64,000 bases of DNA from an uncultured Bdellovibrionales bacterium (lineage in GTDB: Bacteria; Patescibacteriota; Minisyncoccia; Moranbacterales; UBA1568). The position numbers and the translations under genes were made by a program. The notes under the pieces are model-generated. The model did not search any database. It was not told the origin of the DNA and was given only the letters and a program-made list of their open reading frames with translations. The stretch spans positions 4,604 through 68,603 of the forward strand of contig CAZBFG010000001.1 in the NCBI GenBank assembly GCA_964491155.1, given 5' to 3'. Shown piece by piece: positions 4,350 to 41,766 of this stretch (positions within the stretch are counted from its first letter, which is position 1; every line of letters begins with the position of its first letter).

Positions 4350-4862
4350 TCAGGTTCCCAGGGTGCTATGTTTCACTGTTTGCCTGATGATCGAGTCCCT
4401 CACTCGCTCAAAGTGCTGCCTGGAAAAGCTCCGAAGGACCACTCCGACTTCCAGCGGTGTTTGCAAGACGCTCACCGGTGGACGTAGTCCCTTGTCGCCA
4501 AACCACAAAGGAACAGACCCGCACTCAACCCGAAAGTTCGGGGTCTTCCGGTTTTGGAGCACCATAACCTCGCACTTTGCCAAGTGTTCCCGACTGTAAC
4601 CAACCGGCATGGGCACAAGATGCGGAGCAACCTCTTGTTGCAGATCGGCCATCAGCTTCCGCACCCGCTTCGGTTCTTTCCCACCCGGGATAACAAAATC
4701 CACCGGGACATAGATATCCTCTGCCACACCATCCTTGGGGACATACGTGACCGCCAAGTCCGTGGTAGCACCATGCGCGAAACTGCCAATGGCACCAACG
4801 GCCAAAATGGCCAGAGCGAGAATCGCCCAGCCGAGTACCCGCAGAAAAACACCATTCTTCAT
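4350..4862 (-). CDS. Hypothetical exported or membrane protein, in high-GC cassette 1
   Basis: N-terminal hydrophobic segment (WAILALAILAVGAIGSFAHG); the local GC is clearly higher than in the flanking genes; no recognisable domain. Confidence 0.5.
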   Translation of the reverse strand: MKNGVFLRVLGWAILALAILAVGAIGSFAHGATTDLAVTYVPKDGVAEDIYVPVDFVIPGGKEPKRVRKLMADLQQEVAPHLVPMPVGYSREHLAKCEVMVLQNRKTPNFRVECGSVPLWFGDKGLRPPVSVLQTPLEVGVVLRSFSRQHFERVRDSIIRQTVKHSTLGT

Positions 4863-9457: not shown

Positions 9458-10279
9458 TCAGTTCCAGTAAGCCCGAGGGACTCGGATGGTGACGTACTTG
9501 CCACCCGTGTCGCCGACCCATTCGGACATCCACGACTCGCAGTTGTTGGCCGGGTAAGGGCTCCGGTTCTTCTCGCTCTTCGGATCCTCACAGTGCAGGT
9601 CGAACCCGCTGTAGGCATTGTCCATGCCGCGCCACCAGTCGAGGCCGACTTGCAGCCTGGCCGGACCAACGATCGCGACTTCCATCTCCACCAGATAGCG
9701 GGCGTCCCGTTTGTTGTCCAGGCGCCGCCCGGTCCAGTTGTGGAAAAGACGACGAGCGACTTTGCCCGGAAAGACATTGTAGACCCCGCCTTCGTAGTCG
9801 TAGACAAGGTCATTTTCGCCTGTTCCGTCGGTCTCGCCGTACCACTTCTCGACCTCATGACCGCGCGCAGTCATCTGGATCCGCGGAAAAATCCCACCTG
9901 CATCCACGTTTTCTTCACTCGTAGCATTGAACGTGATGGTCTGAAGCAGCCGTTTCGGACTGTTCTTGCCACGCTGTTCGTAGACTTTCCACGAGCGAAT
10001 CGAGACACGAGATGCGCCTCCTGTGTCACAGGGAACAGCGTTTACCACCGTGATGTGACTGATGGCCGCATGAAAGTTCGGTGGCGGCGTTTCCCGACCG
10101 GGATGGTGGTGCTCATTCTTCCAGATGGCACCCGACGGCACCAACGGTAGATTGTTCACTGGTGTCCCCGGAGCACATGGTTTGGTAACCGGGTTTTGTG
10201 CCCACAGTGACGATGAGCACAAGAGCCAGACGATGGCCAAAAAAAACCTCAATGCTTTCGTCACTTGGACTCCTTTCAT
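9458..10279 (-). CDS. Secreted hypothetical protein (high-GC island)
   Basis: Signal peptide MKGVQVTKALRFFLAIVWLLCSSSLWAQ; an AAGGAG ribosome-binding site; about 60% GC. Confidence 0.6.
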   Translation of the reverse strand: MKGVQVTKALRFFLAIVWLLCSSSLWAQNPVTKPCAPGTPVNNLPLVPSGAIWKNEHHHPGRETPPPNFHAAISHITVVNAVPCDTGGASRVSIRSWKVYEQRGKNSPKRLLQTITFNATSEENVDAGGIFPRIQMTARGHEVEKWYGETDGTGENDLVYDYEGGVYNVFPGKVARRLFHNWTGRRLDNKRDARYLVEMEVAIVGPARLQVGLDWWRGMDNAYSGFDLHCEDPKSEKNRSPYPANNCESWMSEWVGDTGGKYVTIRVPRAYWN

Positions 10280-10288
10280 CAGTTAAGT

Positions 10289-10741
10289 TCAGCAGCCCGA
10301 GGACTGCAGGTTCTTGACGTGCATCTCACCGTCGACTCCTTGGAGTCCGATGCGCACGGCGCCGTCCGTCATGTTCGGCGGGAAAACCCATTCCCGCTTG
10401 ACGGATCGGAACTCATCAGACGACCCCTGCTTGAAGTCCGGTGCCCACTTCTGTTTGCCACCGGCCATGATCTCGAAATCGAAATGAGGCCCATGGTAGG
10501 AAGCAGTCCCGCCCTTCACGCCCGTAGCCTTGTACTCGGCCGAGAGCGTGAACTTCTTGCCAGCGCAACTCGCCGGCAAGACATAGATCAGTCGCGGGAA
10601 GTCATCTCCACCGCTCTGACCACGAATGACGTACGTGTCACCGTTCTTAGTGACATCACCACCTTCCATCTTCCACACCACCTGGGCGGTGGCATTGACC
10701 GAAAAAAGAGCGGCCAAAAGCGCTAAAAACTTGGTTTGCAT
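10289..10741 (-). CDS. Small secreted hypothetical protein (high-GC island)
   Basis: Signal peptide MQTKFLALLAALFSVNATAQ; the track start at 10753 is TTG and the ATG at 10741 is preferred. Confidence 0.6.
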   Translation of the reverse strand: MQTKFLALLAALFSVNATAQVVWKMEGGDVTKNGDTYVIRGQSGGDDFPRLIYVLPASCAGKKFTLSAEYKATGVKGGTASYHGPHFDFEIMAGGKQKWAPDFKQGSSDEFRSVKREWVFPPNMTDGAVRIGLQGVDGEMHVKNLQSSGC

Positions 10742-10865
10742 GGTTTGCTCCAATTGAAAAGGACCAGAATTCGTGCGTTCGCATCACGCGAACAAAGAAG
10801 TATAGAATAAAATTCGCTTTCTGTCAATAAAGAGAAACTCGTTTGAGTTTCAGAAATATTTTGGA

Positions 10866-10910
10866 TAAAAAAAGAGGGGTTTCGCAGTACATCGTACTTT
10901 GAAACCCCTA
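10866..10910 (-). terminator. Intrinsic terminator after 10958-11608
   Basis: On the minus strand, aggggtttc...gaaacccct is followed by ctttttttat. Confidence 0.6.
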
Positions 10911-10957
10911 TTGTGTAACCGCGTCATTGACGCGGGACTTGTGGCGGCCTAGCCAGG

Positions 10958-11608
10958 CTACTGGAAGCTGCCGGCGAAGAACTGCTTGGCGGCCTTGGTC
11001 GGCAACACAACCTTGGTAGCCTTGCCGTCGGCACCGCGCTCGACGATGAGCAGTGTGATGGTTTGCCCACGGCTGTTCTTGCCGCGTGACTCACCAAAGG
11101 GGTGGGAACCCCAGGCCCGTGTTCCGTCCTTGAGTTCGATCACAGGGATCGCGCCCAAGAGGTCGTAGTCGCCGGCCACGTCGACCTGATAGGTACCACT
11201 GGCGCCCGTGATGGGTGCGCAGGCAACCCGCGGGTCGTCGAGCTTGAGACTCGGAAGGCTGGCAGTGCCTGGCCAATCACTGCCGCGCTTCAGAATGCAC
11301 TGACGTGCACCTTCGAACGCCGCCGGATTGGTCTTGTAGGACAACACCCAGTCCATGACACCCTTCTTGCCATCCTCGCTTTGCAGCTTGGTAGCGTTGT
11401 AGGTGGCGCCAGGGTCGGTTTTCCACACGGCCGCGATGCCGTGGATGGTCAACTCGACCTTGTCATTGAGAACCGGGCCGATCTGGAGCGTCGTCGCGCC
11501 GGCGCCTTGGGTACCGTTGACCTTGAAGGTCGTCTTGGCCGGTTCGGCCGCGGAAACGCTCAAGGCACATGCGAAAGCCGCGAGCGCGGCGAAGATCTTG
11601 CTGATCAT
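10958..11608 (-). CDS. Secreted hypothetical protein (high-GC island)
   Basis: Signal peptide MISKIFAALAAFACALSVSAAEP; an AGGAG ribosome-binding site. Confidence 0.6.
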   Translation of the reverse strand: MISKIFAALAAFACALSVSAAEPAKTTFKVNGTQGAGATTLQIGPVLNDKVELTIHGIAAVWKTDPGATYNATKLQSEDGKKGVMDWVLSYKTNPAAFEGARQCILKRGSDWPGTASLPSLKLDDPRVACAPITGASGTYQVDVAGDYDLLGAIPVIELKDGTRAWGSHPFGESRGKNSRGQTITLLIVERGADGKATKVVLPTKAAKQFFAGSFQ

Positions 11609-11643
11609 GGTGTGCTCCTAAGTTGCACGGTGGGAAAGTTGAT

Positions 11644-11690
11644 TGCGTCTGTAAAATCAACTCACCCGAGTTGATAGATTCACAGACGCG
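11644..11690 (-). promoter_or_regulatory. Long imperfect hairpin in the 5' UTR of 10958-11608
   Basis: gcgtctgtgaatctatcaactc pairs with gagttgattttacagacgc (8 bp then 6 bp); it lies between the promoter and the ribosome-binding site. Confidence 0.4.
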
Positions 11691-11745
11691 AGGAACTGAG
11701 TTCTCCGATGTTTACCTCTTTGACGAGATACCCACTGGAGGAATC

Positions 11746-11774
11746 AGTATACACCTTTTCTTACTTCTTGTCAA
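11746..11774 (-). promoter_or_regulatory. Sigma70-type promoter, TTGACA-17-TATACT
   Basis: On the minus strand a consensus -35 (ttgaca) is followed by a 17-nt spacer and a -10 (tatact), about 130 nt upstream of the ATG at 11608. Confidence 0.6.
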
Positions 11775-11824
11775 TAGCTAGAAAGAGAATGTTTTAAGGC
11801 TCAAGGGAGCCTAAAAAGATCAAA

Positions 11825-11852
11825 GGCAGGTCGTTCGGATGAACTTCCTGCC
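11825..11852 (-). terminator. Intrinsic terminator after 11995-13617
   Basis: On the minus strand, ggcagg...cctgcc is followed by tttgatcttttt. Confidence 0.5.
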
Positions 11853-11994
11853 CTGATTGCGACGATGTCGCTAACTGCCCTGCTGCGTTTCATTTACCTA
11901 AGCCGATATGTCGCATCCAAATGATTTTCATCATTCGTCTTGGCGCATACCCTTTTTATAGACTTTCGTACAAATTCTACGCAGCTGTGTTCAG

Positions 11995-13617
11995 TCAGTC
12001 GTCAGCGTCAGAGGGCGCGGTCTTCCACTGCTTCTGGGGACTATTCATCCCCTTAGGCAGAATGACCATGCCATCCTTGTCGAGTCGGCCACCGGCCTTT
12101 TCGATCGCGGCCGTGAATTGCGCCTTGCGCGCTTGTTCACGATGCACGTAGACCGTCTTGCGGATGTCCCAGCTCCAGCCGAAACCGAAGAGTGAACCGC
12201 CGTTCAACAGGTCATAGTTGCGACCGAGGCCTATGAAGAGCCGCTCTTCCTTATCGCTCCACTGGAAGCGCCAGTTGGCCGTTTCTGCCAGGCTCGGAGC
12301 CTCTTGGAACCAGCCGAGCGCGAACCAGAGCTTGGTACCGATCTTGTCATCCTCTTCCGAAAGGTCGAGGAGACCGATACGTCCACCCACGTTCACGACA
12401 TGACTGAGCCTGGAGTCCGGGTCGGCCAGTGGTTGACCAAAAACGGAGTGTTCGGCCTCACCTCCCGTCGGCTTGAAGGCCGAAACGAAGAGTTGGTACT
12501 TGAAGAAGGACTTCTCCCCCCTCAACTCGCGTGCGTAGTTGTTGTACGCGAGCGTGATACCACGAAGGTCGAATTGCCGTTGGCTCTTGTAAGCCGCTTG
12601 CTCGCCGTTCTCTTCCAACGTGGCCCACGGCAGCAGCTTGAGACCGAAGTCGTAGCCACCTTCGTAAGCACTGTACTTGTAGGCCGGCCCGTAACCACCG
12701 AGGTGACCACTGAAACCAAAGCCTGTATCAGTCTTGCCGTGCCAGCTGCTGAAAGTGCCGCCGATACCGAACGCGTGTTCGGCACCGGAACCTTCAATGA
12801 AGAGACCGTAGAGCGCTCCAGACACGAACGTCGATTGCGCTGTCCGATCGTACTCCTTGCCGCCCACCAGTTCCCAGTCCCAGCGACGCACTGCCTCTTC
12901 AGGCGGTACTTCTTTGGGTTCGGGTTCTGGTATAACTTCTGGCGTCGGTTCTGGCTCTTTCTGCGGCTGCGGTTCTGGTTCCGGCTGTGGCTCAGGCTGT
13001 GGTTCTGGTTCCGGCTGTGGCTCAGGCTGGGACGTCACCATGAAGGTGATGTTCCCACATGAGAGCATATCGGCCAGCGTCTTGCCGGTCGAGAGCTTCC
13101 ATGTCTCCATCGCTTCGGGTCGCCCACCTTGTTCTGGTGTGCAAACCCTGACGTCACGGAGAAACTTGATCGTACCATCTTTGGAACGGAATGGCATGGC
13201 TTTGAACACCATGTCACTAGATACTAGCTCACGAACTCCACGCTCGAGAGAGACCAGAGCTTTCGCCTCGACTTTCTCTTCTGCCGTCAGATCCGGATTG
13301 GCATCGATTGCCTCCAGCCGAAGCTTGAGAGAGCCATAACGATTCCACGGCGCCCTATTCAAGTTGATGCAGGCTTGGGGCTGCTTCGCTTCGACAGCTG
13401 TACCACGCTCCGGGAACCGGATGATGGCACCAGCCTTGATGACGTTGCAGTCGTCCAGTTGATTGAACAGGCAGAGCACCTGCCAATCATGACCGAACTT
13501 CTTGGCAATCGATCCGAGCGTCTCGCCGGGATTGATTTTGTGAGGCGGCGTTTGATCGCCAGCCCACGCCCCCACCACTCCAAAGAGCAGCAAGAGAACC
13601 ATATACCATTTCTTCAT
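11995..13617 (-). CDS. Secreted LysM-like domain protein with a PEPQ-repeat linker and a Gly/aromatic-rich C-terminal domain
   Basis: Signal peptide MKKWYMVLLLLFGVVGAWAG; a LysM-like segment (INPGETLGSIAKKFGHDWQVL...IKAGAIIRFP); the linker QPEPQPEPEPQPEPQPEPEPQPQKEPEP; a C-terminal ~300 aa rich in G/F/Y/W. Confidence 0.6.
   Translation of the reverse strand: MKKWYMVLLLLFGVVGAWAGDQTPPHKINPGETLGSIAKKFGHDWQVLCLFNQLDDCNVIKAGAIIRFPERGTAVEAKQPQACINLNRAPWNRYGSLKLRLEAIDANPDLTAEEKVEAKALVSLERGVRELVSSDMVFKAMPFRSKDGTIKFLRDVRVCTPEQGGRPEAMETWKLSTGKTLADMLSCGNITFMVTSQPEPQPEPEPQPEPQPEPEPQPQKEPEPTPEVIPEPEPKEVPPEEAVRRWDWELVGGKEYDRTAQSTFVSGALYGLFIEGSGAEHAFGIGGTFSSWHGKTDTGFGFSGHLGGYGPAYKYSAYEGGYDFGLKLLPWATLEENGEQAAYKSQRQFDLRGITLAYNNYARELRGEKSFFKYQLFVSAFKPTGGEAEHSVFGQPLADPDSRLSHVVNVGGRIGLLDLSEEDDKIGTKLWFALGWFQEAPSLAETANWRFQWSDKEERLFIGLGRNYDLLNGGSLFGFGWSWDIRKTVYVHREQARKAQFTAAIEKAGGRLDKDGMVILPKGMNSPQKQWKTAPSDADD
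12936..13034. repeat. Tandem 30-bp DNA repeat encoding the PE/PQ linker
   Basis: ggttctggttccggctgtggctcaggctgt appears in at least two perfect copies plus degenerate copies. Confidence 0.7.
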
Positions 13618-14543
13618 GGCAAACTCCTTGTCTGTAGGTTTCTGGGTGGGTCGCTCGGAAGCAACCCGGCTTGGGTTTCTTCCTTCACGGCGTCACCTTT
13701 CTTCCCGCATCCGTTGTTCGCCACAGATATGTTATGCGGCAACGACAGCACTGCGCCGACAATCATAAACGTCGCGCTGGGCACTGCCGAAGCACTACCG
13801 CATGTGACGAGTCTGTCGAGCTTATTCACGCCCTTTGTCAGGGCGCCAACATGAACGATGTCCGGCTGCGTCGAGAACACTTCCCCATCATCTCCCATCG
13901 GGAGAGGAATGGGGTAGCGTGCTTCCAGCCACACGAAGAACTTGCGTCCTGCGGGGTGGTCGCGCCGGAAATTCGAATACTCAGGAAATGGCGAGGGATG
14001 GGCGGTGAAGAACTGATTACTCAGCTCAAAGGCGCCATTCTCGATATTTACCAAAGCACCCTTGGTCGTCATGACTGTCTTGCCATCATTGAACCGGACG
14101 AGCCAGTAGCCCCGATTGTACTCCGCCACCCTTCCAGGAGGCAAGAGTACAAAAAGCTCTGTTTCGTCAGGATTCATGATGGTGTCAAACACTTCAACTC
14201 TTCCATCGACGTAGTAGGCGGTTCGCCAGACCGAACAGATGACTGGTCGAACTGACTTCCCAACCTTGTACGAGCGACTCGGGTCACGGATCTCACTGCG
14301 CCAGGCCTCAGGGAGAGGCTTGGGCAACTTGATCATGGCGACCGTGTAGCTGAAGGTCTTGGTAACATCACCACGTACTGATACGCAGCGCCACGGCAGT
14401 TGTACACCACCTTGATCGCCTTGCTTCACCTTCGTGGTCTCGATGTTGTAGCCAATATCCTCTCTGACCTCTTCGATCTTCCGATCGATACTGGCGCACC
14501 CCGTGAGGAGGGCCAGAGCGATCATACCAATGATACGCAACAT
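13614..14543 (-). CDS. Lipoprotein of unknown function, overlapping the downstream LysM gene by 4 nt
   Basis: Lipobox MLRIIGMIALALLTGCAS; a GGAG ribosome-binding site ahead of the ATG at 14543; the track start at 14609 is an upstream extension. Confidence 0.6.
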   Translation of the reverse strand: MLRIIGMIALALLTGCASIDRKIEEVREDIGYNIETTKVKQGDQGGVQLPWRCVSVRGDVTKTFSYTVAMIKLPKPLPEAWRSEIRDPSRSYKVGKSVRPVICSVWRTAYYVDGRVEVFDTIMNPDETELFVLLPPGRVAEYNRGYWLVRFNDGKTVMTTKGALVNIENGAFELSNQFFTAHPSPFPEYSNFRRDHPAGRKFFVWLEARYPIPLPMGDDGEVFSTQPDIVHVGALTKGVNKLDRLVTCGSASAVPSATFMIVGAVLSLPHNISVANNGCGKKGDAVKEETQAGLLPSDPPRNLQTRSLP

Positions 14544-14667
14544 GGATATCTCCTTGTGGGTTGCACCAAACAAACTAACTGAACACAAATTGGTAAGGAT
14601 CAAAAACAACAGATCCTAGGAAGAAAGCAGTGGTGACGATGACGCCGCACCGCTCTCTTCCCAGGAA

Positions 14668-34047: not shown

Positions 34048-34584
34048 CTACTTCCGTAAACGCAGCACATCGCTGCAGAACCTCTCGGCACATAGCGTGC
34101 CGCGTGTCTTGAAGTCCCGGCTCCCCTGCCGCAGATCGGTCACGAACGGAAAGGACTGTTCGATTTCAAAGTCGACCCCGTACTTCGGAGTGCTGCCCTT
34201 GTCCGCCGAGAGTAACCAGACCTTGAAACGGTAGGAATGCCTGGCATCAAAACACCAGTTTTCCCGATTCAAGCTCTTTGACACGAAGAACCAGCGCTCG
34301 TTTTTCTCGTCACCATCCCGCGCGTGAACAACAAATCCGTGATTCCCCGGTGTGTTGAGGAAAAACGTGCCGATGCAGAACGATCTTGCATTGGAGCGCG
34401 GACTGATGTCAAACTCCACCTCACTGTCCCGAAAAATCGCCGACCACAACTCGGTCTGTGGGGTAGGGGCGATGGAGGATGAATAGACACGAACGTCCGT
34501 GTGGTAACCAGGGTAATCAGCCGGCGTTTGCGCACGCGCCGCCACCGAAACCAGCAAGCAAAGAACCATGGCGATGAGTTGCAT
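34048..34584 (-). CDS. Secreted hypothetical protein, in high-GC cassette 2
   Basis: Signal peptide MQLIAMVLCLLVSVAARAQTPAD; an AGGAGG ribosome-binding site; own promoter at 34620-34648 (TTGACT-17-TATGGT) and terminator. Confidence 0.6.
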   Translation of the reverse strand: MQLIAMVLCLLVSVAARAQTPADYPGYHTDVRVYSSSIAPTPQTELWSAIFRDSEVEFDISPRSNARSFCIGTFFLNTPGNHGFVVHARDGDEKNERWFFVSKSLNRENWCFDARHSYRFKVWLLSADKGSTPKYGVDFEIEQSFPFVTDLRQGSRDFKTRGTLCAERFCSDVLRLRK

Positions 34585-38728: not shown

Positions 38729-39895
38729 CTAGGGTGGGGTTTGTGGAATTGTGTTTTGTGTTTTGTTTGGACTTTGGACTCTGTGTTTTGTGTTTTCCAA
38801 ATGCTCATTTAGAGCATTGGTGACATAATTCCGTATTTTAGTCTTAAACTGCTCTTTGTCAAAATGAAGGGCCTGATTCCTGATAAAGACCGGGTCGTAG
38901 CGACTCTCATCAAATCCCTGCACGGCCCCCACTATTGATGCAGTAGTCTGTTCATTGAAAAACACTCCTGTCTCCCCTTCTTTCATATGTTCTACGATAT
39001 CGCCTCCCCGATAGGCAATCACCGGGCGACCCGAGGCCATCGCTTCCATGGCCACAATGCCGAAATCTTCTTCTTGGGGGAAAACAAAGGCCCGACACTC
39101 CGCATAGTACTGAGGCAACGCTTCATCCGAAACCCGTCCCAAAAATTCAATCGTCGGTCCGGCCAATTTCTTCAACCGATCCATTTCCGGACCACGACCG
39201 ATAATCTTCAGTGGAAGCTTGAGAGTATTAAAGGCCTCGATGGCGATATCAAAACGCTTGTAGGCAATCAGTCGGCCTACCATAAGAAAATAAGGCTTGC
39301 GATCTTCCGGCTTGGCAATATAGAACTGATCGACGTTGACCGGCGGGTGGATGACGGTCGCTTCTTTATGATAGTACTTGGCGATGCGCTTCCCCACAAA
39401 CTGCGAATTCGCGAGATAGCGGTCGACCCGATCGGCACTGGCCTTGTCCCACAGACGGATAGGACTCATGAAAAAAGGCACCAGTCGCTTCACGAGACTC
39501 GGGAAACCAAAATCCTGCGTGTATTTCTGGCAGTCATCCCACGCATAGCGCATCGGGGTGTGCATGTAGCAGATGTGGAGCGTCTCCGGTCTGGTGATAA
39601 TGCCTTTGGCATAGCTCGACGAATCAGACAACACGATGTCGTACTTACTAAAATCAAATTCTTCGATAGCGAGCGGCATCAGTGGCGGGAAAAAGCGATG
39701 ATGTTTGCGCGAAAAAGGCATTTTTTGTAGAAACGAGGTATAGATACGTTTCTCTGAAAACTGCCCCCGCATAGCCTGATCGTCGTGAATCAAAGTATAA
39801 ATCGGGGCATAGGGAAAAACCTCGGTAAAGGCCTCGAGTACCCGCTCGGCTCCACCATACTGCACCAAATAGTCATGCACCAGCGCTATTTTCAT
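38729..39895 (-). CDS. GT4-family glycosyltransferase
   Basis: Begins MKIALVHDYLVQYGGAERVLE; GT1 C-terminal EDFGIVAMEAMASGRPVIA. Confidence 0.8.
   Translation of the reverse strand: MKIALVHDYLVQYGGAERVLEAFTEVFPYAPIYTLIHDDQAMRGQFSEKRIYTSFLQKMPFSRKHHRFFPPLMPLAIEEFDFSKYDIVLSDSSSYAKGIITRPETLHICYMHTPMRYAWDDCQKYTQDFGFPSLVKRLVPFFMSPIRLWDKASADRVDRYLANSQFVGKRIAKYYHKEATVIHPPVNVDQFYIAKPEDRKPYFLMVGRLIAYKRFDIAIEAFNTLKLPLKIIGRGPEMDRLKKLAGPTIEFLGRVSDEALPQYYAECRAFVFPQEEDFGIVAMEAMASGRPVIAYRGGDIVEHMKEGETGVFFNEQTTASIVGAVQGFDESRYDPVFIRNQALHFDKEQFKTKIRNYVTNALNEHLENTKHRVQSPNKTQNTIPQTPP
38744..38798. repeat. GT-rich direct repeat (tgtgttttgtgttttg, two copies) overlapping the 3' end of the glycosyltransferase
   Basis: Two copies flank ggactttggactc; they encode the low-complexity tail PNKTQNTIPQTPP. 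Confidence 0.5.
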
Positions 39896-39943
39896 ATATA
39901 CCCACTCTAGCGCAAAATGAGCCTTTCGGCGAGGGTAAGCCAA

Positions 39944-39984
39944 GAAAAAGAAAAGCCCGCGCTTGGTTGTTCACCTTGCGCGGG
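39944..39984 (-). terminator. Intrinsic terminator after 39990-40547
   Basis: On the minus strand, cccgcgc-aaggtgaacaaccaa-gcgcggg is followed by cttttctttttctt. Confidence 0.6.
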
Positions 39985-39989
39985 AAAGA

Positions 39990-40547
39990 TCAGTACTCAG
40001 CGTCGTCCGTGAAGTGTACGAAGTACCACTTCCCGGCGACCGAGCATTTGCCACCGAAGCGCGGGCTCGCCGGATTGCGCCGGTTATTCCACAATTCGGT
40101 ATACTCCACAGAACAGGCCAGCGTGTAGAGTTGCCCACTCATACGGTCAGTGAGCATGATCCAGAGCGTGTCGCCCTGAACACTGATCGACTCGAGCGGA
40201 CCCCGCTTCCACAACCAGTCCGCATGGAAGCGTGGAGTGATCTCCACCACCCAGTGATTCCGCACGTGTTCGGCCGTCCGTTCTATGAACGGATGTTGTC
40301 CCGACGGCGTCTTCAGTCGACGACTCGCGTGACAGAAAACGATGTGTCCGTTCGGGCTGTGCTCGGGGTAGACCTCCCACTCTTCGCCAGCGGAGATCGA
40401 TTGCCGGCGAGGAGGCTCGATGATGAGCTTGTAGTTCTTGCCGTCGAATTCGTACGGCGCCCACAGTTGCCTCTGACTGTTGTGGACACCCTCCCGCACC
40501 GTGACGGTGATGGTGTGGAAGAAGGGAATGTTGCGGTTGGTAGACAT
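39990..40547 (-). CDS. Hypothetical cytoplasmic protein, in high-GC cassette 3
   Basis: 185 aa with no signal peptide; an AAGGAG ribosome-binding site; about 60% GC. Confidence 0.55.
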   Translation of the reverse strand: MSTNRNIPFFHTITVTVREGVHNSQRQLWAPYEFDGKNYKLIIEPPRRQSISAGEEWEVYPEHSPNGHIVFCHASRRLKTPSGQHPFIERTAEHVRNHWVVEITPRFHADWLWKRGPLESISVQGDTLWIMLTDRMSGQLYTLACSVEYTELWNNRRNPASPRFGGKCSVAGKWYFVHFTDDAEY

Positions 40548-40698
40548 CGTAGTCTCCTTGGTTCAGGGGTTGCATCGCTGCATCCCACAGACTTCGGATT
40601 CCACTTGTCCAGAAAAAAATTGAGATGCAGACAGTTGTTCAAAAATCTACATCATATGTGCCAATACATGAGTATCTCCTTTTAAAGTACGAAACGAG

Positions 40699-40727
40699 AT
40701 GATAGCATATTTTCGTATAAAAGTCAA
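40699..40727 (-). promoter_or_regulatory. Sigma70-type promoter TTGACT-17-TATCAT for 39990-40547
   Basis: The minus strand reads ttgacttttatacgaaaatatgctatcat; it implies a ~145-nt leader containing a tiny uORF (MYWHI). Confidence 0.55.
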
Positions 40728-40741
40728 TAGATAAGAGTTCA

Positions 40742-40769
40742 AAAAAGAGGCTTAAAAAATCCTCTTTTA
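40742..40769 (-). terminator. Intrinsic terminator after the metzincin gene
   Basis: On the minus strand, aagagg-attttttaag-cctctt is followed by tttttt. Confidence 0.55.
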
Positions 40770-40806
40770 AATATTTTACATTGAAGTAACCGTACTTTCT
40801 CACGCT

Positions 40807-41766
40807 TCAAACTATTTTATCAACCACTCTCCCCTTCAAAATATTAATCCGTTCCCAAATGATGTCCCAGACAGTCTGATTGCACCGAGTGAGGAGCATG
40901 GCTTTGTCTTCGGATGACAGCGCTATCGGATCGAGAGACTGCTGTTCCATCAAATAGTACATCATCGACTGGGGATCGCTTCCGTGAGCAAACCCCAGGG
41001 CATGCCCAAATTCATGTACCAAGACGGCCCGGAGATGCGAGACATCATCGTACTGATAAATATTGATTTCTTCACCAACATAGTCCCCCTGGTCGAACTG
41101 CGCTGACTGTCCATAGCGCCCGGTATATTCTTCTACCCGCGCATTGTAGTCCTCGACCACTGCCACTTGTTTGGCCGAAAATGAATTAACTTCTTTGGCC
41201 AGTGCATTCACCTCGAGTCGTTTGGCCTCCAGTTCTTTTTCTTCCTTGAGAAGCACCCGCGAGACCTTTTCCAGGTCTTTATAGACATCCTCCGGAGCAC
41301 CGCCTTCGCGATTCCATTTTTCCACCTCAGCATTATAGGCACTCAGTTTTCTCTTGAACGATTCAAACAAACGCTCGTATTCTCTACTGGTCTTTTCGTA
41401 CAAAGAACGGGTCTTTTGCTGCTTTTGTTCCAGAGTTTCTTGTGAAGCCTTTGTTTTTTCCAAAAAAGATTCTAGTTTTTGACCCTCAAGCGTGCGCTCC
41501 TGCCGCTCGTCAAAAACCAGATTTATTTTGAACGCAGCCTCTGGCACAAAGCGAAACAACTCCCGACCCAGTGCACTTTCCCATAGTTCTTCGGCAGCAC
41601 TGGCTTCCTGCAAGAAATCTTCCTGACTGATACCAAAGCGACTATCGAATGCCCCGAGAGCATACTCGATCGGCGTAGCACACGGCACTGGTACGGTTTT
41701 CCACACTAAAACTGTGCCCAAAACAAGGACAACAAAAAGTCCGTACTGGAGAATCTTTTTTATCAT
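40807..41766 (-). CDS. Membrane-anchored metzincin (matrixin-like) zinc peptidase
   Basis: N-terminal TM helix, a coiled-coil spacer, and the HEFGHALGFAHGSD motif (HExxHxxGxxH) followed by a Met-turn (MMYYLM). Confidence 0.7.
   Translation of the reverse strand: MIKKILQYGLFVVLVLGTVLVWKTVPVPCATPIEYALGAFDSRFGISQEDFLQEASAAEELWESALGRELFRFVPEAAFKINLVFDERQERTLEGQKLESFLEKTKASQETLEQKQQKTRSLYEKTSREYERLFESFKRKLSAYNAEVEKWNREGGAPEDVYKDLEKVSRVLLKEEKELEAKRLEVNALAKEVNSFSAKQVAVVEDYNARVEEYTGRYGQSAQFDQGDYVGEEINIYQYDDVSHLRAVLVHEFGHALGFAHGSDPQSMMYYLMEQQSLDPIALSSEDKAMLLTRCNQTVWDIIWERINILKGRVVDKIV

What the first reader, a model, noticed from the sequence alone, without database searches (positions are those of the whole stretch)
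39944..40740. High-GC cassette 3: a cytoplasmic 185-aa protein with a TTGACT-17-TATCAT promoter, a 145-nt leader and a perfect terminator
The gene at 39990-40547 has no signal peptide, unlike the other high-GC genes. It has a near-consensus promoter (40699-40727), a leader containing a 5-codon uORF (ATGTATTGGCACATATGA) and an AAGGAG ribosome-binding site, and it is followed 5 nt after its stop by the cccgcgc...gcgcggg terminator. This self-contained architecture sits between a glycosyltransferase and the metzincin gene. It could be a regulated accessory function; the uORF and long leader suggest attenuation or translational control.
Basis: seen in the sequence. Interest (0 to 1): 0.5.

Follow-up and report, generated by a model that had tools for sequence, protein, structure and literature searches.

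The report
Movable gene with ribosome-sensing leader
A small stand-alone gene of unknown function, found at different places in related uncultured bacteria, always travels with its own promoter, terminator and a folded leader holding a five-codon mini-gene that probably switches the main gene on when ribosomes linger on it.

Summary
The 185-aa frame on the minus strand is the coding one.

Seven homologous copies exist in about 5.8 billion protein clusters. They sit in four genomic contexts: pheT-M10|GT4, fusA|tuf, HtrA|DUF5656 and HtrA|ClpB. A collinear relative has an empty M10|GT4 site, and the same MAG carries the copy between fusA and tuf. The unit is therefore a roughly 0.84-kb accessory cassette that changes location.

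The leader is under selection:
- The uORF M-X-W-H-I-UGA and its Shine-Dalgarno are kept in all seven copies.
- The main ribosome-binding site and start codon are paired.
- Mutually exclusive helices A:B, B:C and C:C' are conserved, and one B:C pair shows a U:A to C:G swap.
- No conserved terminator lies inside the leader.

The best reading is uORF-dependent translational attenuation of the erm/cat type. The inducing signal is unknown.

This is a new variant of a known regulatory kind and is moderately interesting.

The parts
40743..40768 (.). T1: palindromic terminator-like hairpin AAAAGAGG-N8-CCTCTTTTTT at the 5' edge of the cassette. It also ends the upstream M10 gene.
   Evidence: Folds at -7.6 kcal/mol. 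It is the only AAGAGG..CCTCTTTT hairpin in the 64-kb window. It is kept upstream of the promoter in L006, L009, L008 and L131, that is behind both M10 and HtrA. It is absent from the empty site in L134.
40699..40727 (-). Sigma-70-type promoter TTGACT-17-TATCAT with a TG extension.
   Evidence: TTGAC(T)-spacer-TAnnnT is kept at the same position in L006, L009, L008 and L131, and further upstream in L004 and L007.
40676..40681 (-). Shine-Dalgarno AAGGAG of the uORF.
   Evidence: GGAG lies 6-8 nt before the uORF ATG in all 7 loci, while the spacer sequence varies.
40652..40669 (-). uORF ATG TAT TGG CAC ATA TGA, encoding M-Y-W-H-I-stop.
   Evidence: M-X-W-H-I-UGA in 7 of 7 loci. Codon 2 is TAT, CAT, AAC, AAT or GGC. 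There is one synonymous CAC>CAT change. TGG, CAC and ATA are rare codons and TGA is the rarest stop in host genes.
40646..40653 (-). Helix arm A (GATGTAGA), which overlaps the uORF stop codon.
   Evidence: Pairs with B. The 8-bp helix has 89% of cells paired across 7 sequences and is predicted independently by RNAalifold.
40621..40631 (-). Arm B (TCTGCATCTCA), which pairs either with A or with C.
   Evidence: A:B. B:C is 10 bp with 100% of 69 cells paired, and one pair is CG:3, UA:3, UG:1.
40596..40611 (-). Arm D (TGGACAAGTGGAATCC), the segment that pairs with the main Shine-Dalgarno and start region.
   Evidence: It pairs with the main SD, spacer and start codon in the minimum-energy folds. 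The duplex has the same architecture in 6 of 7 loci at -10 to -19 kcal/mol. The consensus fold also contains it.
40567..40587 (-). Arm C and hairpin C:C' (T-GGGATGCA-GCGA-TGCAACCC).
   Evidence: The stem is invariant in all 7 loci while the loop varies: GCGA, GCAC, GTAA, GCTTC. Arm C alternatively pairs with B.
40545..40559 (-). Main translation start region: SD AAGGAG (40559-40554), spacer, and start codon ATG (40547-40545). This is arm D'.
   Evidence: CAAGGAGAC and (A/G)TGTCTACCAAC are invariant in 7 of 7 loci, including at synonymous sites. The region is paired in the predicted folds.
39990..40547 (-). CDS of a 185-aa cytoplasmic protein from an unannotated family with an SPNGH(I/V)VFC motif.
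39942..39984 (-). T2: intrinsic terminator CCCGCGC..GGT..ACC..GCGCGGG followed by a U-run.
   Evidence: -18.8 kcal/mol, z -2.9. A hairpin plus U-run directly after the stop codon is present in all loci, with changed inner stems.

Best explanation
The region is an autonomous accessory expression cassette of about 0.84 kb. Its order is terminator hairpin T1, promoter, 145-nt leader, 185-aa gene, terminator T2. It has changed location among related uncultured bacteria.

Expression of the gene is most likely controlled at translation by the leader. In the resting fold, the main Shine-Dalgarno and start codon are paired with an upstream segment (D:D'). This pairing is stacked on an invariant hairpin (C:C'). 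A second hairpin (A:B) starts inside the UGA of a well-initiated five-codon uORF, M-X-W-H-I-stop. The uORF is built from rare codons and the rarest stop codon.

A ribosome that dwells at the end of the uORF covers arm A and the W-H codons. Arm B is then free to form a 10-bp helix with C. That helix excludes C:C' and loosens the masking of the ribosome-binding site, so the main gene is translated. This is the logic of erm/cat translational attenuation.

Shown:
- the anatomy of the unit;
- its relocation and the empty site;
- conservation of the uORF and helices;
- the energetics of the alternative folds.

Inferred:
- that stalling occurs;
- the direction of the switch;
- the inducing signal, which could be a ribosome-targeting compound, limiting RF2, or limiting Trp, His or Ile(AUA) tRNA;
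- that the product, a two-lobed beta-barrel protein, acts on nucleic acid or the translation apparatus.
For: Mobility:
- Four contexts hold the unit.
- Similarity between the window and L004 is confined to window 40681-39947.
- A 17-kb collinear relative (70-78% nt identity, PheS >= 90% identical) has a 78-nt M10|GT4 spacer and no cassette. The same MAG carries the cassette between fusA and tuf.
- The closest pair of coding sequences, L006 and L004 at 87% nt identity, lie in different contexts.

Leader under selection:
- Leader identity is 0.85-0.88 against 0.64-0.68 at third codon positions for the same pairs.
- Conservation is patchy: uORF, arms and SD are kept while linkers vary.

uORF translated:
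- SD and ATG are kept while the spacer varies. W-H-I-UGA is invariant, codon 2 is free, and there is one synonymous change.
- The uORF uses rare codons and the rarest stop.

Structure:
- In the resting fold 94% of cells are paired, against 30-44% in slid controls.
- B:C is 100% paired and one pair shows CG:3, UA:3, UG:1.
- RNAalifold independently returns A:B, C:C' and D:D', plus pairing of uORF GGCAC with the main start codon.
- A:B adds about -11.7 kcal/mol to the resting state. With arm A masked, the resting fold and the B:C fold lie within 0-6.5 kcal/mol of each other, and B:C is the minimum-energy fold in L131.
- The anti-SD/start duplex is kept in 6 of 7 loci, using different bases.

Precedents:
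- MsrDL (MYLIFM) stalls at its stop codon, and only residue 2 is dispensable (PMC10314930).
- PepNL arrests at UGA (PMC11890864).
Against: - There are only 7 sequences, about 5 of them independent. Shuffle controls are not decisive: 58 of 500 shuffles reach the observed B:C score, and the resting structure shows no pair changed on both sides.
- Thermodynamic folding with arm A masked still slightly prefers the resting 3' hairpin in 6 of 7 loci, so a switch would need kinetic, co-transcriptional help.
- B:C and D:D' could coexist as a pseudoknot, so unmasking of the ribosome-binding site is not guaranteed.
- The invariant TGGCAC could be kept for RNA pairing with the main start codon rather than for the peptide.
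- No inducer is known and the protein function is unknown.
- A distant family member (L132) has a short leader without a uORF.
Confidence: 0.55

Rival explanations
1. Autogenous control. The protein, if it binds RNA or ssDNA, binds the invariant hairpin C:C' or the folded leader of its own mRNA and represses its translation. T4 gp32, ribosomal proteins and CspA-type proteins work this way. The uORF would only tune ribosome loading.
For: The fold resembles only nucleic-acid-binding small barrels: S1, OB, TRAM, tandem-OB SSB-like proteins such as LEF-3 and Teb1, and HIN domains. The C:C' stem and its flanks are invariant while the loop varies. The leader always travels with this gene.
Confidence: 0.15
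2. There is no regulation. The gene is a constitutively expressed hypothetical gene, and the leader looks conserved only because the cassette spread recently.
For: The family of close copies is tiny and closely related: 7 proteins at 49-77% identity. The promoter match alone is at chance level. Covariation statistics are weak.
Against: The leader is more conserved than synonymous sites of the adjacent CDS: 0.88 against 0.64 for the window versus L007. Conservation is confined to the uORF, helix arms and SD, with variable linkers and loops. Copies at only 49-57% protein identity still keep every element.
Confidence: 0.12
3. Transcription attenuation. A terminator and antiterminator pair in the leader is chosen by the ribosome on the uORF, as in trp or msrD.
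For: In the window, hairpin A:B is followed after 4 nt by TTTTTTT. Mutually exclusive helices exist.
Against: The U-tract after A:B is absent in the other six loci, and C:C' is followed by CCCUGAACC rather than U residues. No terminator-like site was scored in the leader.
Confidence: 0.05
4. The leader is a ligand-binding riboswitch or a thermosensor that frees the ribosome-binding site without help from the uORF.
For: The fold is conserved, compact and three-way-junction-like, with the Shine-Dalgarno and start codon paired.
Against: No Rfam family matches even at E <= 10. There is no conserved internal-loop sequence beyond the helix arms. The translated-uORF signature is left unexplained.
Confidence: 0.08

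Closest known systems
erm (ermC/ermB) and cat/cmlA translational attenuation leaders
   Same: All have a short leader ORF with its own Shine-Dalgarno. The ribosome-binding site of the downstream gene is buried in a hairpin. The 5' helix arm lies within the footprint of a ribosome on the leader ORF. Mutually exclusive 1:2, 2:3 and 3:4-type pairings are present. Basis: established knowledge of these systems, PMC8274638 and PMC5499644, and here.
   Different: The peptide here is only 5 residues (M-X-W-H-I) and is unrelated to ErmCL, ErmBL or the Cat leaders. The predicted dwell site is at or next to the UGA stop. The regulated gene is neither a methyltransferase nor an acetyltransferase but an unannotated beta-barrel protein. 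The masked start region is closed by a long interrupted helix around a separate invariant hairpin. No inducer is known.
MsrDL (MYLIFM) leader of msrD
   Same: Both are very short, aromatic and hydrophobic leader peptides with a strong SD. [quoted passage not shown] Here residue 2 is likewise the only variable position.
   Different: MsrDL controls a Rho-independent terminator, so it acts on transcription, and it uses UAA. Here no leader terminator is conserved and the stop is always UGA. The sequences are unrelated, and macrolide dependence is untested.
PepNL and TnaC, arrest peptides acting at UGA through RF2
   Same: Arrest occurs at a UGA stop codon, and the last residues of the nascent chain matter (PMC11890864). 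Here UGA is invariant and is the rarest stop in the host.
   Different: PepNL is 14 residues and folds as a mini-hairpin in the exit tunnel. A 5-residue peptide cannot do this. There is no sequence similarity, and arrest is unproven here.
S1 / OB / TRAM small beta-barrel nucleic-acid-binding domains, including tandem-OB SSB-like proteins (LEF-3, Teb1, HIN)
   Same: The confident all-beta model matches these folds best. Some distant family members carry acidic C-terminal tails, as many SSBs do.

Membership tests
Ribosome-dependent translational attenuation (erm/cat type) | Short leader ORF with its own ribosome-binding site upstream of the regulated gene | tested here: met
   AAGGAG-6 nt-ATG, 5 codons, kept in 7 of 7 loci with a variable spacer.
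Ribosome-dependent translational attenuation (erm/cat type) | Ribosome-binding site and start codon of the regulated gene sequestered in secondary structure | tested here: met
   In silico only. Minimum-energy folds, the consensus fold and duplex predictions all pair the SD, spacer and start codon. The D:D' helix has 94% of cells paired.
Ribosome-dependent translational attenuation (erm/cat type) | Mutually exclusive alternative helices, with the first arm inside the footprint of a ribosome on the leader ORF | tested here: met
   Arm A starts in the uORF stop codon. A:B, B:C and C:C' exclude one another. B:C is 100% paired with one compensatory pair. The two states are near-isoenergetic when A is masked.
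Ribosome-dependent translational attenuation (erm/cat type) | Peptide-specific and/or inducer-dependent ribosome stalling on the leader ORF | not testable with these tools
   Only indirect hints exist: invariant W-H-I-UGA, one synonymous change, and rare codons.
Transcription attenuation (trp / msrD type) | Intrinsic terminator (hairpin plus U-tract) inside the leader | tested here: not met
   A U7 tract follows A:B only in the window and is absent in the 6 other loci. There is no U-tract after C:C'.
Described RNA families (Rfam 15: riboswitches, leaders, ribozymes) | Covariance-model match | tested here: not met
   No relevant match at E <= 10 in 39800-40900. Only two tRNAs match in the whole window.
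OB / S1 / TRAM nucleic-acid-binding proteins | Fold match at a convincing score, or a profile match | tested here: inconclusive
Integron gene cassette | Promoterless ORF followed by an attC recombination site, next to an integrase or cassette array | tested here: not met
   The unit has its own conserved promoter. Its 3' hairpin is a GC stem plus U-run terminator. Its neighbours are housekeeping genes (pheT, fusA, tuf, htrA) with no array. attC was not modelled formally.
Phage, plasmid or defence-system gene | Homologue in phage or plasmid records, or in PHROGs or PADLOC | tested here: not met
   No hits.

The most novel reading that the evidence does not exclude
M-X-W-H-I-UGA is a new, minimal sensory arrest peptide. 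It reports a specific translation stress, such as a ribosome-targeting natural product, RF2 shortage, or AUA/Trp/His decoding shortage. It switches on a previously unknown two-barrel protein that acts on the ribosome or on RNA, as a new resistance or rescue factor. The whole sensor-effector unit moves as a single-gene cassette between housekeeping loci of uncultured small-genome bacteria by an unknown, transposase-free route.
Probability: 0.2. Interest if true: 0.8.

Novelty: new variant of a known kind. Interest (0 to 1): 0.55.

Why it matters
If the model holds, the cassette offers three things. It gives a five-residue leader peptide that would be among the shortest ribosome-sensing peptides known. 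It gives a compact attenuator RNA from bacteria that cannot be grown. It also gives a strong functional hint for a protein family with no annotation at all: something the cell wants only when translation is disturbed.

The sensor and effector travel together as an 0.84-kb unit. They can therefore be synthesised and tested in a model host, which makes an otherwise opaque hypothetical gene from metagenomes directly testable.

The relocation of a promoter-to-terminator unit without any recombinase gene is a small puzzle about gene flow in these lineages.

Tried and rejected
- Sequence annotation of the protein found nothing: Pfam, NCBIfam, PHROGs, PADLOC and PDB by sequence and by profile.
- tblastn against phage and plasmid records, and an IMG/VR scan, found nothing.
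- Rfam found nothing for the leader.
It returned almost only chance 18-mers, with one true copy identical to L007, so the leader could not be sought in front of other genes.
- The plus-strand 240-aa ORF was rejected as an in-register antisense artefact.
- A leader terminator was rejected because it is not conserved.
- Metal-site or enzyme ideas based on His and Cys residues invariant among close copies were dropped. Only Q27, G54, P65, G67 and F71 stay nearly invariant in the wider family.
- The host taxon could not be settled. One MAG is labelled Bdellovibrionales by its submitter. The gene content looks like a small-genome uncultured lineage, but this was not tested.
- DNA of three distant homologues could not be fetched.

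Full report
**1. Observation**

- The promoter is TTGACT-17-TATCAT at 40727-40699. It scores 10 of 12 with a TG extension.
- The 18-nt uORF ATGTATTGGCACATATGA lies at 40669-40652.
- The main AAGGAG lies at 40559-40554, six nt before the ATG at 40547.
- The ORF is 185 aa and ends at 39990.
- Five nt after the stop comes CCCGCGC...GCGCGGG followed by a U-run. It folds at -18.8 kcal/mol, z -2.9.

The promoter match by itself is at chance level: 4 sites were found in 4 kb against 3.7 expected. Its weight comes from conservation, described below.

- The uORF has its own AAGGAG at 40681-40676.
- A palindromic terminator-like hairpin at 40768-40743 belongs to the unit.
- A longer 240-aa ORF runs on the opposite strand (39963-40685).

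That antisense ORF is in register with the codons of the 185-aa gene. It is open only because the gene uses no TTA, CTA or TCA codons. Among homologues, differences fall in the order position 3 > 1 > 2 in the minus-strand frame, and the antisense frame is broken in L008. The 185-aa frame is therefore the gene.

The gene has GC 0.59 and GC3 0.76, against flanks of 0.48-0.49. The same contrast (GC3 0.67-0.83) holds in all homologous loci.

**2. An accessory unit that changes location**

Only seven close homologues exist among about 5.8 billion protein clusters. Their contigs show four contexts:

| Context | Loci |
|---|---|
| pheS-pheT-M10 peptidase \| gene \| GT4 | window/L001, L006, L009 |
| rpsL-rpsG-fusA \| gene \| (...) tuf | L004, L007, L010 |
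| HtrA \| gene \| DUF5656-HtrA | L008 |
| HtrA \| gene \| ClpB | L131 |

DNA similarity between the window and the fusA-context locus L004 is confined to window 40681-39947. That stretch runs from the uORF ribosome-binding site to the end of the terminator.

A relative whose PheS is at least 90% identical is collinear with the window over 17 kb at 70-78% nt identity. It has only a 78-nt spacer between M10 and GT4. The window carries about 836 extra nt exactly there.

One copy of that empty site (L135) comes from the same MAG assembly, CAZHDL01, as L010. L010 has the cassette between fusA and tuf.

Further points bear on the history of the unit.
- The closest pair of coding sequences, L006 and L004 at 87% nt identity, lie in different contexts.
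- L006 has a leader whose 3' half matches the L008-type copies while its CDS is of the window type. The copies therefore recombine.
- The upstream hairpin AAGAGG...CCTCTTTT occurs once in the 64-kb window. It accompanies the cassette behind both M10 and HtrA and is missing from the empty site. The unit therefore runs from about 40770-40790 to about 39945.
- No recombinase gene is part of it. No copy was found in phage, plasmid or IMG/VR collections.

**3. The leader**

All seven copies keep the following elements:
- a GGAG 6-8 nt before the uORF ATG, with a variable spacer;
- the uORF M-X-W-H-I-UGA, where codon 2 is TAT, CAT, AAC, AAT or GGC and the rest is invariant apart from one synonymous CAC>CAT;
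- arm A (GATGTAGA), which starts inside the UGA;
- arm B (TCTGCATCTCA);
- a segment D ending in AATCC;
- the hairpin GGGRTGCA-loop-TGCAACCC (C:C'), with a variable loop;
- the invariant CAAGGAGAC...(A/G)TGTCTACCAAC of the main start region.

Linkers between these elements vary freely.

Leader identity is 0.85-0.88 between the window and L004 or L007. Third codon positions of the adjacent CDS are only 0.64-0.68 identical for the same pairs. The non-coding leader is therefore under purifying selection.

Pair counts and fold predictions give the following.
- On the 7-sequence alignment, the resting structure (A:B, C:C', D:D') has 94% of cells paired. Controls with the 3' partner slid by 1-3 columns give 30-44%.
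- The alternative 10-bp helix B:C has 100% of 69 cells paired, against 29-59% in slid controls. One pair occurs as C:G three times, U:A three times and U:G once.
- RNAalifold, run independently, returns A:B, C:C' and D:D'. It adds a five-pair helix between the uORF bases GGCAC (the W-H codons) and the main start codon region.
- The duplex between the D linker and the main start region has the same SD-spacer-start architecture in 6 of 7 loci at -10 to -19 kcal/mol. It is built from different bases in the two cassette subtypes.

The energetics fit a switch. A:B contributes about -11.7 kcal/mol to the resting state. When the footprint of a ribosome with Ile in the P site is made unpairable, folds containing B:C lie within 0-6.5 kcal/mol of the resting fold. 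In L131 the B:C fold is the minimum.

No hairpin followed by a U-tract is conserved in the leader. The U7 after A:B is peculiar to the window. Control would therefore act on translation, not on transcription.

Rfam has no matching family.

The three invariant sense codons are rare in host genes: TGG 7.0, CAC 6.2 and ATA 5.7 per 1000. TGA is the rarest stop, used in 4 of 22 genes. This fits a slow, sensor-like uORF, but the sample is small.

**4. Mechanism proposed**

In the resting fold the ribosome-binding site and start codon are masked. The uORF is well initiated. A ribosome that dwells at its end covers the W-H codons and arm A. This frees arm B, which pairs with C as C is made, prevents C:C' and weakens the mask, so the main ORF is translated.

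The RNA anatomy and its conservation are shown. Stalling, the direction of the switch and the signal are inferred.

Two points weaken the case. Thermodynamics alone still slightly favours the resting 3' hairpin in six loci, so kinetics would have to help. B:C and D:D' could also coexist as a pseudoknot.

Precedents make a five-residue sensor plausible. MsrDL (MYLIFM) stalls at its stop codon in the presence of erythromycin, and only residue 2 is dispensable (PMC10314930). PepNL arrests at UGA by blocking RF2 (PMC11890864).

**5. The protein**

An exhaustive profile search finds 46 representatives at E <= 1e-3 and 24 at E <= 1e-10. They share an N-terminal module with the pattern LP..FP...Q(L)WA...GE.W.V.P..SPNGH(I/V)VFC. 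Some are single-domain. Several have acidic C-terminal tails with a YRERQEELYWE-like motif. None has a Pfam domain or a relative in the PDB by sequence.

With 37 sequences AlphaFold gives pLDDT 93 and pTM 0.81. The model has fourteen strands and one helix at residues 86-97.

Nucleic-acid binding is a reasonable guess, not a result.

The contexts of distant members are unrelated to one another: next to Fic and HSP20, next to NusA, or variable. The one whose DNA could be read has a short leader without a uORF. The leader is therefore specific to the close subfamily.

**6. Comparison and verdict**

The unit works like an erm/cat-type translational attenuator and shares traits with MsrDL. It differs in four respects:
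- the peptide, which is 5 residues long and unrelated in sequence;
- the invariant UGA;
- the architecture, a long interrupted mask around a separate invariant hairpin;
- the regulated gene.

It fails the tests for transcription attenuation, Rfam families, integron cassettes, and phage or defence genes.

I rate it a new variant of a known regulatory kind, attached to an unannotated protein family. Interest is moderate at 0.55.

The most novel reading not excluded is a minimal sensory arrest peptide driving a new translation-stress or resistance factor on a transposase-free mobile unit. I give it a probability of about 0.2.

Noticed in passing
window 9458-14609, 34048-34584 and 4350-4862 (minus strand): Other ORFs have raised GC3 (0.62-0.79, against about 0.50 for host genes), and all have signal-peptide-like N-termini. 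Their origin was not examined.
   Followed up: no
window 39963-40685 (+): A 240-aa ORF lies antisense to the gene and in register with its codons. It is also stop-free over the whole CDS in 4 of the 5 other copies compared (not in L008), because TTA, CTA and TCA codons are avoided. It is a trap for gene callers.
   Followed up: yes
L004 5730-5865; L007 5700-5795; L010 3080-3215: In the fusA|tuf copies, about 100 nt are inserted between the conserved promoter/CGTAyCTT motif and the uORF ribosome-binding site. The insert contains a long hairpin (TTTGCCTTAGCAGAGAGG...TTCTCTGCTATGGCAAA). It may be an extra regulatory or mobile element.
   Followed up: no
L009 5975-6105: A segment of about 130 nt lies between the cassette terminator and GT4. 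It is bounded by roughly 19-nt inverted repeats (CCCGTTAGAAGC.GCGGTCGC ... GCGACCTGCTTCTAACGGG). It looks MITE-like and is absent from the window and L006.
   Followed up: no
L006 versus L004, L008 and the window (alignment A4): The cassette is mosaic. The 3' half of the L006 leader matches the L008/L131 subtype, while its CDS is closest to L004. This implies recombination between cassette copies.
   Followed up: partly
L007 5932-6486; L008 6061-6609: Public gene calls for P0005 (161 aa) and P0007 (202 aa) use wrong starts. The conserved start, (A/G)TGTCTACCAAC preceded by CAAGGAGAC, gives 184 aa and 182 aa.
   Followed up: yes
window 40807-41766 (-): The neighbouring M10 metzincin has an N-terminal membrane anchor and a long charged coiled-coil-like insert before the HExxHxxGxxH region. 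It diverges as fast as the cassette, at 58-71% identity, while PheT and GT4 stay at 81-84%.
   Followed up: no
L010 and L135 (assembly CAZHDL01): The MAG that holds both the empty M10|GT4 site and the fusA|tuf copy is labelled 'uncultured Bdellovibrionales' by its submitter. The gene content and one-strand gene order of the window look more like a small-genome uncultured lineage. The taxonomy was not checked.
   Followed up: no
distant homologues P0008, P0011, P0012, P0014, P0016, P0020, P0029: Several distant family members end in a strongly acidic tail with a recurring Y(R/D)ER(Q/R)EE(L/I)(Y/F)W(E/D)R motif, which is absent from the window subfamily. It recalls the acidic tails of SSB proteins, but this was not tested.
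   Followed up: no
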